Assembly (NCBI GenBank): GCA_016432645.1
Contig: CP066698.1
Location: 261,062 to 325,061, forward strand
Length of the DNA stretch: 64,000 nucleotides
Direction of reading: 5' to 3'
DNA from: Candidatus Falkowbacteria bacterium
Lineage (GTDB): Bacteria > Patescibacteriota > Patescibacteriia > Patescibacteriales > UBA12465
Position numbers and translations under genes: made by a program. Each line of letters starts with the position of its first letter. Positions within the stretch are counted from its first letter, which is position 1. Below the pieces are notes generated by a model that saw only the letters and a program-made list of their open reading frames with translations, was not told where the DNA came from and made no database searches. Shown here piece by piece: positions 29,538 to 29,697 of this stretch.

Positions 29538-29647
29538 AAAAAAATTATAGCAAAATATGAACAGCTGGTCAACTAAGTTTCCGGATGTGGACCCGCGGGG
29601 AATTGAACCCCGGAAACCAAGTGCTAAGTTTGATTTCGAGGACCACC
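29501..29647. repeat. Imperfect inverted repeat (arms 29501-29536 and 29618-29647) flanking an 81-bp core
   Basis: Arm A is ggtaatcc-ttaata-tcgaaaccaaacttagcacttg. The reverse complement of arm B is ggtggtcc-tcgaaatcaaacttagcacttg. 21 of 22 positions are identical in the main block. Confidence 0.85.
29544..29572 (-). promoter_or_regulatory. Near-consensus promoter TTGACC-N17-(TGC)TATAAT
   Basis: -35 at 29567-29572, exact 17-nt spacer, TG-extended perfect -10 at 29544-29549. Confidence 0.7.
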
Positions 29648-29661
29648 TCCGGGCCCACATC
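29584..29661 (-). ncRNA. Non-canonical tRNA-like RNA (four-way junction with a perfect T arm)
   Basis: GAUGUGGGCCCG | GAGG-UGGU-CCUC | GAAAUCAA-ACUUAGCAC-UUGGUUUC | CGGGG-UUCAAUU-CCCCG | CGGGUCCACAUC. Has its own promoter. The overlapping 68-aa ORF (29454-29660) is judged spurious. Confidence 0.55.
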
Positions 29662-29668
29662 GCTTTTG

Positions 29669-29697
29669 ATTATAGCAAACACGCGATAAATTCAATC
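29669..29697 (-). promoter_or_regulatory. Promoter (TGC)TATAAT with TTGAAT at N15 (or GATTGA at N17)
   Basis: TG-extended perfect -10 at 29669-29674. The predicted start lies 1-3 nt before the tRNA-like closing stem. Confidence 0.55.

What the first reader, a model, noticed from the sequence alone, without database searches (positions are those of the whole stretch)
29584..29697. Promoter-driven tRNA-like RNA whose architecture fits no tRNA class I know
On the minus strand, directly after the stop of the 117-aa ORF, sits a TG-extended perfect -10 (TGCTATAAT) with TTGAAT 15 nt upstream. One to three nt after the predicted start begins a 78-nt element that folds by hand into a four-way junction. 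It has a 12-bp closing stem (GAUGUGGGCCCG / CGGGUCCACAUC, one G-U), a 4-bp hairpin with a 4-nt loop (GAGG-UGGU-CCUC, keeping a GG like D-loop G18G19), and an 8-bp hairpin with a 9-nt loop (GAAAUCAA-ACUUAGCAC-UUGGUUUC). The fourth arm is a textbook T arm (CGGGG-UUCAAUU-CCCCG). Read as a tRNA, it is 73 nt with a 9-bp acceptor stem ending in discriminator A at 29586. It has no 8-9 linker, no variable region and an oversized anticodon arm. The central loop triplet is UAG; read as a 7-nt loop, CUUAGCA places a pyrimidine at position 37. This does not match canonical tRNA, bacterial tRNA-Sec (8/5 stems, long V arm, UCA), tmRNA (no room for a ~350-nt body) or bacterial Y-RNA mimics, whose ends form the Ro-binding stem. 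The ORF track covers it with a spurious 68-aa ORF, so routine annotation would miss it.
Basis: partly seen in the sequence, partly recalled or inferred. Interest (0 to 1): 0.72.

Follow-up and report, generated by a model that had tools for sequence, protein, structure and literature searches.

The report
tRNA-like RNA with cognate antisense partner
A 245-bp accessory cassette in some Falkowbacteria (candidate phyla radiation) genomes encodes a tRNA/tmRNA-like RNA that cannot decode codons, plus a second small RNA whose 5' end co-evolves to stay complementary to it; I found no catalogued family or paper describing such a two-RNA system.

Summary
Window 29661-29584 (minus strand) folds exactly as described (MFE -42.3 kcal/mol, z = -5.1). 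It starts 7 nt after a TGcTATAAT extended -10. ARAGORN and Rfam do not call it at their thresholds.

Three things are new.

1. Read 7/5, its acceptor stem and T arm match those of many tmRNAs and a tRNA-Ala: GGGCCCG/CGGGUCC with G3:U70 and A73.

2. A second, near-consensus promoter 45 nt downstream drives a ~75-nt terminated sRNA. Its single-stranded 5' end is antisense to the 9-nt loop and 5' strand of the long arm.

3. There are eight distinct TLD/sRNA pairs from related genomes. In them the scaffold is 93-98% conserved and the arm and seed are only 63-70% identical. Yet 13 of 17 intermolecular pairs show compensatory double changes (97.8% paired; 0 of 500 shuffles reach this).

The cassette is patchy among close relatives. 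It sits in a hotspot next to tRNA-Leu that elsewhere holds toxin-antitoxin genes, homing endonucleases and a viperin-like gene.

Best reading: a non-decoding, probably alanine-accepting tmRNA/tRNA-Ala mimic held in check by a dedicated antisense RNA. It may be an all-RNA toxin-antitoxin-like module. The function is inferred, not shown.

The parts
29669..29695 (-). P1, promoter of the tRNA-like RNA: TTGAAT (29695-29690), 15-nt spacer, extended -10 TGcTATAAT (29677-29669). G1 of the RNA follows 7 nt after the -10.
   Evidence: Read from the sequence. TGnTATAAT and the 7-nt distance to G1 are kept in all variants, including L070/L110, where the upstream sequence is replaced. Not listed by the consensus scan because of the 15-nt spacer. 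Transcription is not shown.
29584..29661 (-). tRNA-like RNA (TLD), 78 nt. The 5-bp leader/trailer extension is 29661-29657 with 29588-29584. The 7-bp acceptor stem GGGCCCG/CGGGUCC is 29656-29650 with 29595-29589, with G3:U70 and A73 = 29588. The D-like hairpin GAGG-UGGU-CCUC is 29649-29638. The long arm is 29637-29613. The T arm is 29612-29596.
   Evidence: MFE fold, z = -5.1. Model R1 scores 92-104 bits in 18 related contigs and only 25-42 bits on the opposite strand. 99.1% of cells are paired across 8 variants. Sub-threshold tmRNA and mascRNA matches.
29613..29637 (-). Long arm of the TLD: 8-bp stem GAAAUCAA/UUGGUUUC and 9-nt loop ACUUAGCAC (29629-29621). This is the recognition site for the sRNA. 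The 3' strand is G/U-rich.
   Evidence: Only 70% identical between variants, yet 96.9% paired; 20 of 64 cells are G.U, so the hairpin exists only on this strand. Positions 3-6 of the loop read Y-U-N-R in all nine variants.
29544..29572 (-). P2, promoter of the antisense sRNA: TTGACC (29572-29567), 17-nt spacer, TATAAT (29549-29544) with TG at 29552-29551.
   Evidence: 11 of 12 consensus matches plus TG. TTGAC and TATAnT are the invariant blocks in a spacer that is otherwise 61% identical.
29463..29537 (-). Antisense sRNA, about 75 nt: single-stranded 5' seed (29536-29515), internal hairpin (29523-29492), and an A-run/terminator hairpin with U tract (29491-29465).
   Evidence: Terminator found by scan. 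Fold has a free 5' end, z = -3.8. The 3' part is 90% conserved. The ends are predicted, not mapped.
29515..29536 (-). Seed of the sRNA: 22 nt, 95% complementary to TLD positions 23-44 (29639-29618). The single non-Watson-Crick position is a G.U.
   Evidence: Inverted repeat I1. No other match in the 64-kb window beyond chance. Intermolecular covariation in 13 of 17 pairs, 0 of 500 shuffles. Cognate duplexes -36 to -43 kcal/mol against -13 to -33 for non-cognate.

Best explanation
The locus is a self-contained two-gene RNA cassette of about 245 bp.

**Gene 1.** It makes a tRNA-like RNA from its own extended -10 promoter. The RNA keeps an alanine-type (tmRNA/tRNA-Ala) acceptor/T minihelix. Its lower half (no linkers, a 4-bp D-like hairpin, an 8-bp arm with a 9-nt loop) rules out codon reading.

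*Inferred:* RNase P, a 3' nuclease and the CCA-adding enzyme trim it to a 7-bp acceptor stem with a CCA end, and AlaRS charges it. It can then engage machinery that handles tRNA-Ala or tmRNA (AlaRS, EF-Tu, possibly SmpB and stalled ribosomes) without being productive.

**Gene 2.** Transcribed from a stronger consensus promoter 45 nt downstream, it makes a terminated sRNA whose free 5' end docks on the 9-nt YUNR loop.

*Shown by covariation and energy calculations:* the pairing zips through the 5' strand of the arm.

*Predicted from energies only:* the pairing continues into the D-like hairpin.

*Inferred:* this unfolds the lower half of the tRNA-like RNA into a 20-30-bp duplex, which inactivates it and probably exposes it to RNase III.

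**Logic.** Read-through from P1 makes the two RNAs 1:1 and P2 adds excess sRNA. The system therefore has the logic of a dedicated antisense brake on a stable structured RNA. That is the logic of a type I or type VIII toxin-antitoxin or addiction module, here with a tmRNA/tRNA-Ala mimic in the toxin's place.
For: **Anatomy.** Fold and promoters. A 22-nt seed/arm complementarity.

**Conservation.** Found in 18 related contigs as 9 distinct TLDs and 8 distinct pairs. Scaffold 93-98% and sRNA 3' part 90% identical, against 61% for the spacer, where only the -35 and -10 blocks are invariant.

**Pairing.** Intermolecular helix: 17 pairs, 13 with double compensatory changes, 97.8% paired, 0 of 500 shuffles, and at most 48.5% paired when slid. 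Cognate pairs gain 2-14 kcal/mol on co-folding; non-cognate pairs gain 0. The seed is predicted single-stranded. The arm hairpin is kept by G.U wobble, so it is strand-specific.

**Alanine-type minihelix.**
- G3:U70 and A73 are invariant.
- The tmRNA model aligns both of its ends to the TLD.
- The 22-mer spanning the T arm and 3' acceptor strand hits 15 viral contigs: 13 tmRNA 3' ends, one tRNA-Ala and one odd tRNA.
- G3:U70 is the major AlaRS determinant (PMC7609411).

**Processing machinery.** The window encodes RNase P RNA and a CCA-adding enzyme. Neither tRNA gene in it encodes CCA.

**Dedicated partner.** No other seed target in 64 kb, and the seed drifts at about the neutral rate.

**Accessory nature.** Absent from sister lineages and from the P0127 lineage. 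The cassette order is shuffled relative to neighbouring cargo. The hotspot elsewhere holds PhD/RelE-like pairs, LAGLIDADG genes and a pVip-like gene.
Against: - No expression, processing, charging or toxicity data exist; everything beyond anatomy and covariation is inference.
- The 5-bp leader/trailer extension is invariant in sequence, not merely in pairing. This may mean the 12-bp stem is the functional form and RNase P trimming does not occur.
- The D loop loses its GG in L078, so an L-shape is not assured.
- Part of the arm/seed co-variation could come from DNA-level correction between inverted repeats. G.U outnumbers A.C or other mismatches only 6 to 3 in the intermolecular helix.
- The sequences are related, so cell counts overstate independent events.
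- Guilt by association with the hotspot is weak.
- Toxin-antitoxin modules are usually more widely scattered than this one, which was found at a single locus in one small group.
Confidence: 0.4

Rival explanations
1. One structured RNA, not two. The functional molecule is the ~190-nt P1 read-through transcript. In it, the long-range helix between TLD nt 13-44 and the 'sRNA' segment is the native fold, or one state of a conformational switch. P2 merely adds a competitor or a 3' fragment.
For: There is no terminator between the TLD and P2. In all six variants folded, the MFE of the full transcript is the long-range duplex, 0.7-14 kcal/mol better than the enforced cloverleaf.
Against: The P2 hexamers are the only invariant blocks in an otherwise neutral spacer, so independent transcription of the sRNA is selected. 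The cloverleaf itself is kept by wobble-tolerant changes in the arm. It forms first during transcription, at -42 kcal/mol.
Confidence: 0.15
2. Reverse direction. The sRNA is the effector and acts on other targets. The tRNA-like RNA is its sponge, decoy, or processing and stability scaffold.
For: tRNA-derived sponges for sRNAs are known in enterobacteria (3'ETS-leuZ; my own knowledge). The sRNA has classic trans-acting architecture and the stronger promoter.
Against: The seed is only 63% identical among close relatives and tracks the arm. A conserved external target would have to co-vary too. No other match was found in the 64-kb window.
Confidence: 0.12
3. Non-ribosomal alanine donor. The TLD is an Ala-accepting adaptor kept out of translation and used by an aminoacyl-tRNA-dependent transferase (cell-wall cross-bridge, lipid aminoacylation or similar). 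The sRNA tunes its level.
For: An alanine-type minihelix with a non-decoding lower half. Non-proteinogenic tRNAs for cell-wall synthesis are known in Staphylococcus (my own knowledge).
Against: No Fem/MurM- or MprF-like gene was seen among the 27 window ORFs scanned or beside the cassette in relatives. A metabolic adaptor would not be expected to be patchy between near-identical lineages.
Confidence: 0.08
4. Minimal or two-piece tmRNA. The TLD plus the paired sRNA together rescue stalled ribosomes.
For: The acceptor and T arm are identical to many tmRNAs. The tmRNA model aligns end to end at 20-30 bits.
Against: Scores are below the gathering cut-off of 47. ARAGORN calls no tmRNA. The sRNA has no conserved reading frame or in-frame stop (sequences). 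Its 3' part leaves the duplex at the junction side, not the distal side as in tmRNA. Known two-piece tmRNAs are split within the acceptor stem. No pseudoknots.
Confidence: 0.05
5. No RNA function. A decaying tRNA-Ala or tmRNA fragment, or a DNA-level element (an att-site relic or an invertible segment flanked by 22-bp inverted repeats).
For: It lies at the 3' side of a tRNA gene in an insertion hotspot. Its 3' half equals the tmRNA 3' ends found at prophage junctions. The inverted repeat exists.
Against: Scaffold 93-98% conserved against about 61% for neutral spacer. Two promoters and a terminator are conserved in one orientation. 20 of 64 arm cells are G.U, which would be A.C mismatches on the other strand. 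The segment has the same orientation in all 18 contigs. The 81-bp interval is too short for recombinase-mediated inversion and no recombinase is adjacent.
Confidence: 0.05

Closest known systems
tRNA-like domain of tmRNA (Rfam RF00023), and tRNA-Ala
   Same: A 7-bp acceptor stem GGGCCCG/CGGGUCC with G3:U70 and A73, and the T arm CGGGGUUC(A/G)AUUCCCCG. Both are letter-for-letter those of many tmRNAs and of a phage tRNA-Ala. The tmRNA model aligns both of its ends to the element. CCA is not encoded, as in the host's own tRNA genes.
   Different: 78 nt instead of about 350. No mRNA-like reading frame, no pseudoknots and no P2 helix. A closed hairpin sits where the tmRNA body would be. A D-like hairpin replaces the D loop. 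20-30 bits against a cut-off of 47. Against tRNA-Ala: no 8-9 linker, no variable region, an 8-bp/9-nt arm and no Ala anticodon.
mascRNA / MEN-beta tRNA-like small RNAs of vertebrates (RF01684)
   Same: Same reduced cloverleaf: the acceptor stem runs directly into a short D hairpin, with a short extra arm and a canonical T arm. This is the best Rfam score, 32-35 bits. It is a non-decoding RNA made by tRNA-processing enzymes (my own knowledge).
   Different: Below the cut-off of 42.5. A vertebrate nuclear lncRNA by-product with no antisense partner. The resemblance is architectural, not homology.
Dedicated trans-encoded antisense RNAs of type I toxin-antitoxin loci (IstR-1/tisB, OhsC/shoB), and the RNA-toxin 'type VIII' pairs (SdsR/RyeA, CreT/CreA)
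   Same: A neighbouring sRNA gene with its own strong promoter. About 20 nt of complementarity to one partner only. A single-stranded seed meets a loop. An accessory, patchy distribution. In type VIII the toxin is itself an RNA. (System descriptions are from my own knowledge; a literature search for a tRNA-like example found none.)
   Different: There is no toxin ORF. The ATG-initiated frame in the TLD varies from 28 to 68 aa and changes non-synonymously. The two genes are tandem on one strand. Toxicity is untested. CreA needs Cascade, and SdsR/RyeA overlap in cis.
ColE1 RNA I / RNA II and R1 CopA/CopT antisense control
   Same: A cloverleaf-like structured RNA and a complementary partner that meet through a loop with a YUNR U-turn motif. 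Specificity is set by a few loop and stem bases that drift between relatives (my own knowledge).
   Different: Those pairs are cis-encoded on opposite strands of a replicon and control replication. Here there is no replicon, the locus is not at a skew switch, and the partners are encoded in tandem.
Non-canonical tRNAs: allo-tRNA (8/4, 9/3), tRNA-Sec, tRNA-Pyl (PMC7609411)
   Same: Unusual stem lengths. M. alvus tRNA-Pyl also lacks the acceptor-D linker and has a 4-nt D loop. Some allo-tRNAs carry G3:U70, and some were suspected of links to transposons or toxin-antitoxin systems.
   Different: Those keep a 12-13-bp acceptor/T branch, a 5-6-bp anticodon stem, a 7-nt loop and a defined anticodon. 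Allo-tRNA and tRNA-Sec also have a long variable arm. Here the branch is 12/5 (or 7/5 after trimming), with an 8-bp stem, a 9-nt loop, no variable region and a changing central triplet.

Membership tests
Canonical tRNA (RF00005) | Cloverleaf with 2-nt 8-9 linker, 5-bp anticodon stem, 7-nt loop and variable region; detected by ARAGORN or the Rfam tRNA model | tested here: not met
   No call by ARAGORN in the window or in any related locus. No RF00005 hit even at E <= 10. The fold has no linkers and an 8-bp/9-nt arm. Relaxed ARAGORN gives inconsistent, mispaired models.
Canonical tRNA (RF00005) | A fixed anticodon matching the acceptor identity | tested here: not met
   The central loop triplet is UAG, UAA or UGA in different variants, while the acceptor stays alanine-type.
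tmRNA (RF00023), one-piece | tRNA-Ala-like domain: G3:U70 acceptor stem, T arm, A73 | tested here: met
   Invariant G.U at the third acceptor pair. Acceptor and T arm identical to tmRNAs in L084, L089, L090 and L097. The model's ends align.
tmRNA (RF00023), one-piece | mRNA-like domain with resume codon, tag ORF and stop; pseudoknots; score at or above the cut-off of 47 bits | tested here: not met
   78 nt in total. 20-30 bits. ARAGORN calls no tmRNA.
Two-piece (permuted) tmRNA (RF04321) | Acceptor piece and coding piece joined through the acceptor stem and P2; the coding piece carries a tag ORF | tested here: not met
   The acceptor stem is closed within one RNA. 11-18 bits against a cut-off of 47. 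The sRNA has no conserved frame or stop.
mascRNA-menRNA (RF01684) | Score at or above 42.5 bits; location at the 3' end of a vertebrate lncRNA | tested here: not met
   32-35 bits, in a bacterial genome. Architectural resemblance only.
Bacterial Y RNA / YrlA | The 5' and 3' ends form the Ro-binding stem; the tRNA-like module is internal; encoded near rsr | tested here: not met
   The ends form the acceptor-type stem. No Y-RNA family hit at E <= 10. No Ro/TROVE gene among the neighbours scanned. The whole genome was not scanned.
allo-tRNA / tRNA-Sec-like | 12- or 13-bp acceptor/T branch as 8/4, 9/3 or 8/5; long variable arm; 6-bp D stem (PMC7609411) | tested here: not met
   The branch is 12/5 (17 bp), or 7/5 after trimming. 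No variable arm and a 4-bp D-like stem.
Dedicated antisense RNA pair | Extended complementarity between two separately promoted RNAs, maintained by covariation | tested here: met
   22 nt at 95% in the window. 13 of 17 pairs compensatory, 97.8% paired, 0 of 500 shuffles. Both promoters conserved. Cognate-specific energies.
Dedicated antisense RNA pair | Both RNAs are actually transcribed and interact in vivo | not testable with these tools
   No transcriptome data are available here; promoters and terminator are consensus predictions.
Type I toxin-antitoxin | Small toxic protein encoded by the target RNA | tested here: not met
   The only frame (MWARRWSS...) ends after 28, 32, 36 or 68 codons in different variants and changes non-synonymously. 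The mini-ORF in the sRNA is not kept in frame.
Type VIII (RNA toxin / RNA antitoxin) | The RNA is toxic when the antitoxin RNA is absent; the antitoxin is the less stable partner | not testable with these tools
   Only circumstantial evidence: a stable structured TLD against an open-ended sRNA, the stronger P2, and an accessory hotspot.

The most novel reading that the evidence does not exclude
An all-RNA toxin-antitoxin or abortive-infection module whose toxin is a body-less tmRNA/tRNA-Ala mimic. When the labile antisense sRNA runs out, the charged mimic jams alanine-tRNA or ribosome-rescue machinery (AlaRS, EF-Tu, SmpB or stalled ribosomes). Specificity is set by a fast-drifting arm/seed pair.
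Probability: 0.2. Interest if true: 0.9.

Novelty: new variant of a known kind. Interest (0 to 1): 0.75.

Why it matters
**What would be new.**
- It would add a tRNA/tmRNA mimic to the short list of bacterial RNAs that are themselves the regulated effector rather than a regulator of mRNAs.
- It would be one of the first non-coding RNA systems defined in the candidate phyla radiation, where almost nothing is known about small RNAs.

**Why it is tractable.** The cassette is tiny, self-contained (two promoters, one terminator) and portable. Nature supplies eight cognate arm/seed pairs that can be swapped to test specificity.

**Possible pay-offs.**
- If the mimic is charged with alanine and engages SmpB or ribosomes, it would be a natural probe, or inhibitor, of trans-translation.
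- If it is toxic, it would extend RNA-only toxin-antitoxin systems to a new mechanism.

**Annotation.** Routine pipelines miss it. They put a spurious 68-aa ORF, or 118 aa in relatives, over it.

Tried and rejected
**Ideas tested and rejected**
- **Canonical or relaxed tRNA calls.** ARAGORN at 70-100% thresholds gives nothing or inconsistent junk.
- **Protein-coding reading of the TLD or sRNA.** Frames are not conserved.
- **Two-piece tmRNA.** No tag frame and the wrong topology.
- **Trailer pairing with the arm's 3' strand** (inverted repeat I6). Present in the window and L003 only, so not conserved.
- **'Stop codon displayed in the loop'** (UAG, UAA, UGA). Explained more simply by a Y-U-N-R loop motif with a purine at N. 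Three of the four U-R-R triplets are stops, so three types give no significance.
- **Loop UUGACAU as a mimic of the tRNA-Val(GAC) anticodon loop, or as a -35 box.** Not shared by the window subfamily.
- **Replication origin or primer.** No GC-skew switch in the window.
- **Hypervariability of arm and seed.** Their 63-70% identity is about the neutral level, since the spacer is 61% and the flanking ORF differs at 9-17% of sites with an identical protein. This is compensated drift, not demonstrable diversifying selection.
- **Functional link to the neighbouring unknown 3xx-aa membrane protein.** Its position and orientation vary and it occurs without the cassette.

**Searches that found no relatives of the cassette**
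- Viral contigs with the D hairpin plus T arm pattern, and with the sRNA pattern: 0 hits.
- JGI metagenomes: only two contigs of the same group.
- blastn against phages and plasmids: none.
- Model R1 over the other 65 genome loci and the 28 outgroup or viral loci fetched later: no element; the 10 P0127-lineage loci scanned also gave no hit.
- Literature: no paper combines tRNA-like with Patescibacteria, or describes a tRNA-like RNA with a dedicated antisense partner or RNA-toxin role.
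Full report

Yes. On the minus strand, the 117-aa ORF stops at 29707-29705. TTGAAT lies at 29695-29690 and TGCTATAAT at 29677-29669. Seven bases later, at 29661, a 78-nt element begins. The energy is -42.3 kcal/mol against -25.7 +/- 3.3 for shuffles (z = -5.1; 0 of 200 shuffles fold as well).

ARAGORN finds only tRNA-Gln and tRNA-Leu(CAA) in the window. Rfam at gathering scores finds only those two and RNase P RNA. At permissive thresholds the best match is the vertebrate tRNA-like mascRNA model, at 34.9 bits against a cut-off of 42.5. No tRNA-model hit appears at all. ARAGORN with thresholds lowered to 70-90% produces only mutually inconsistent, mispaired models.

**2.

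Forty-five bases downstream of the element is a near-consensus promoter: TTGACC, a 17-nt spacer, then TGcTATAAT (29572-29544; 11 of 12 matches plus TG). About 75 nt further on lies the only intrinsic terminator of the region, at 29491-29465. There is no terminator between the element and this promoter.

The first 22 nt of the predicted transcript (29536-29515) are 95% complementary to element positions 23-44, that is, the 9-nt loop and the 5' strand of the long arm. The single exception is a G.U. This seed has no other match in the 64-kb window beyond chance. It is predicted to be single-stranded, followed by a hairpin and the terminator.

**3. Relatives.**

The 117-aa protein is conserved in Falkowbacteria and other Patescibacteria. 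In 68 species-level genome loci anchored on it, the convergent tRNA-Leu(CAA) usually follows the ORF within 40-90 nt, leaving no room for the element. Sequence and covariance-model searches find the element in only three of these loci.

Exact-protein look-ups added more contigs. In all, 18 contigs besides the window carry the element. They hold nine distinct versions of the tRNA-like RNA and eight distinct complete pairs.

It is absent from the nearest outgroups and from one lineage whose 117-aa protein is 98% identical. On a small ORF tree, carriers and non-carriers are interleaved.

Cargo order differs between contigs:
- An unknown 3xx-aa membrane-protein gene lies after the cassette in L001 but before it in L070.
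- A radical-SAM gene precedes the cassette in L073.
- A 947-aa beta-helix gene follows it in L071.

In other genomes the same spot holds LAGLIDADG endonucleases, PhD/RelE-like pairs and an HD protein. The L073 radical-SAM protein matches prokaryotic viperin models. The element is therefore a ~245-bp accessory cassette in an insertion hotspot at the 3' side of tRNA-Leu. It was not found in viral contigs, phage or plasmid records, and in only two JGI metagenome contigs, both of the same group.

**4. Selection.**

Between carriers, the flanking ORF is 83-94% identical in DNA although the protein is identical or nearly so. Neutral divergence is therefore large.

| Region | Pairwise identity |
|---|---|
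| Scaffold of the tRNA-like RNA | 93-98% |
| 3' part of the sRNA | 90% |
| Long arm | 70% |
| Seed | 63% |
| Spacer | 61% |

Inside the spacer, the invariant blocks are TTGAC and TATAnT of the second promoter. The first promoter keeps TGnTATAAT and the 7-nt distance to G1 even where its upstream sequence has been replaced, as in L070 and L110. This pattern rules out a decaying pseudogene.

**5. Covariation.**

Across eight pairs the cloverleaf is 99.1% paired. Its long arm has no invariant pair and stays paired mostly through G.U (20 of 64 cells), because the 3' strand is G/U-rich and tolerates transitions in the 5' strand. On the opposite strand these would be A.C mismatches. The model accordingly scores 92-104 bits on this strand and 25-42 bits on the other.

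The intermolecular helix (arm 5' strand and loop against the seed; 17 aligned pairs) gives:
- 97.8% of cells paired;
- 13 pairs with changes on both sides;
- a covariation score of 0.65 against 0.37 for shuffles (0 of 500 reach it);
- at most 48.5% paired when the partner is slid by one to three columns.

Cognate duplexes are -36 to -43 kcal/mol against -13 to -33 for non-cognate ones. Only cognate pairs gain energy on co-folding, by 2-14 kcal/mol.

The predicted duplex runs on, imperfectly, into the D-like hairpin. The full read-through transcript prefers this long-range duplex in all six variants folded. The two RNAs therefore have mutually exclusive states: cloverleaf plus free sRNA, or a 20-30-bp duplex with the lower half of the cloverleaf unfolded.

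Caveats:
- The sequences are related, so cell counts overstate independent events.
- Inverted repeats can be co-corrected at the DNA level.
- G.U outnumbers other mismatches only 6 to 3 in this helix.

**6. What kind of tRNA-like RNA?**

Counting 12 bp from the T loop gives a 7-bp acceptor stem GGGCCCG/CGGGUCC, with G3:U70 and discriminator A73 (29588). All are invariant. G3:U70 is the major AlaRS determinant (PMC7609411).

The Rfam tmRNA model aligns its two ends to the element with its whole body deleted, at 20-30 bits against a cut-off of 47. A scan of viral contigs with the 22-mer spanning the T arm and 3' acceptor strand returned 15 loci: 13 tmRNA 3' ends, one tRNA-Ala and one odd tRNA. 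The tmRNAs among them begin GGGCCCG and end CCGGGGUUCGAUUCCCCGCGGGUCCA, identical to the element.

The window encodes RNase P RNA and a CCA-adding enzyme, and neither of its tRNA genes encodes CCA. Trimming and CCA addition are therefore plausible, though inferred.

Decoding is not plausible. The arm is about two base pairs too long, the loop has nine bases, there are no linkers, and the central triplet differs between variants (UAG, UAA, UGA). That all three are stop codons is best explained by a Y-U-N-R loop motif with a purine at N. Such U-turn loops speed antisense pairing (Franch et al. 1999; my own knowledge).

**7. Mechanism: what I commit to and how firmly.**

*Shown:*
- a conserved two-promoter, one-terminator cassette;
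- a strand-specific cloverleaf with an alanine-type minihelix;
- a dedicated, co-evolving antisense seed;
- accessory distribution.

*Inferred:*
- The tRNA-like RNA is processed, CCA-tailed and alanylated.
- It engages tRNA-Ala or tmRNA machinery unproductively.
- The sRNA docks on the loop, unfolds the lower half and inactivates the RNA, probably exposing it to RNase III. The sRNA is made 1:1 by read-through plus an excess from its own, stronger promoter.

This is the logic of a dedicated antisense brake, as in type I and type VIII toxin-antitoxin loci, with a tmRNA/tRNA-Ala mimic as the controlled, possibly toxic, RNA. I put 0.4 on this overall reading and about 0.2 on the specific all-RNA toxin-antitoxin version.

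Rivals:

| Rival reading | Confidence |
|---|---|
| One long RNA with a conformational switch | 0.15 |
| The tRNA-like RNA as sponge or scaffold for an sRNA that acts elsewhere | 0.12 |
| A non-ribosomal alanine donor | 0.08 |
| A minimal tmRNA | 0.05 |
| No RNA function, or a DNA-level element | 0.05 |

**8. Comparison with known families, and novelty.**

The element fails the defining tests for canonical tRNA, tmRNA (one- and two-piece), mascRNA, YrlA, allo-tRNA/tRNA-Sec and type I toxin-antitoxin. It meets those of a dedicated antisense pair as far as sequence can show. The membership table gives the details.

No Rfam family reaches its threshold. Literature searches found no tRNA-like RNA described in Patescibacteria and no tRNA-like RNA with a dedicated antisense partner. 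I rate it a new variant of known kinds: tRNA-like non-coding RNA combined with dedicated antisense control.

Its narrow distribution and unknown function temper the score. The clean intermolecular covariation, the tmRNA-type minihelix and the ease of experimental testing raise it.

Noticed in passing
window 29412-29704 and the same spot in L001-L120: The gap between the 117-aa ORF and the convergent tRNA-Leu(CAA) is an insertion hotspot. It ranges from 40 to about 1400 nt between genomes. Cargo includes LAGLIDADG endonucleases, PhD/RelE-like pairs, an HD protein, a radical-SAM protein matching prokaryotic viperin models (L073, E = 1e-10) and a 947-aa beta-helix protein (L071).
   Followed up: partly
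L001 2127-3116 (-), L070 676-1599 (-), L073 3862-4770 (-), L118 3022-4053 (-), also L005 and L012: A family of 300-345-aa predicted membrane proteins with no Pfam or PADLOC match (shared motifs such as KGQIAWLW and IETxxxFIF). It lies next to the RNA cassette in several variants, in varying order and orientation, and also occurs without it.
   Followed up: partly
L091 575-647 (-) (IMGVR_UViG_3300035698_005222, 30% G+C): A viral contig carries a tRNA with the same alanine-type acceptor stem and T arm as the element (GGGCCCG...CGGGGUUCAAUUCCCCGCGGGUCCA, G3:U70). ARAGORN calls it tRNA-Phe(GAA), with a weak anticodon stem. It may be a mistranslating or degenerate phage tRNA.
   Followed up: no
L007 about 1855-1990: In this genome the same intergenic spot holds five tandem copies of AAAAACACGGGGCT followed by two of AAAAAAACAGGAAT, in place of the cassette.
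   Followed up: no
window 34915-35323 (-): Bacterial class A RNase P RNA (177 bits), 409 nt, with several inserted stretches relative to the 367-position model.
   Followed up: no
window 40431-41867 (-); tRNA genes at 7958-8029 (-) and 29327-29411 (+): A CCA-adding enzyme gene is present. Neither tRNA gene in the window encodes its 3' CCA, so CCA is added after transcription in this organism.
   Followed up: yes
window 29705-30058 (-): The 117-aa protein has no Pfam family, yet it is very strongly conserved: identical in genomes whose DNA differs at 9-17% of its sites, with 225 homologues in Patescibacteria. It always follows mnmA. Its function is unknown.
   Followed up: partly
L118 4760-4850 (-): In the lineage that lacks the cassette, the tRNA-Leu(CAA) at this position has a clearly different sequence from the one in the window, although the neighbouring 117-aa protein is 98% identical. 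This suggests replacement by recombination at the hotspot.
   Followed up: no
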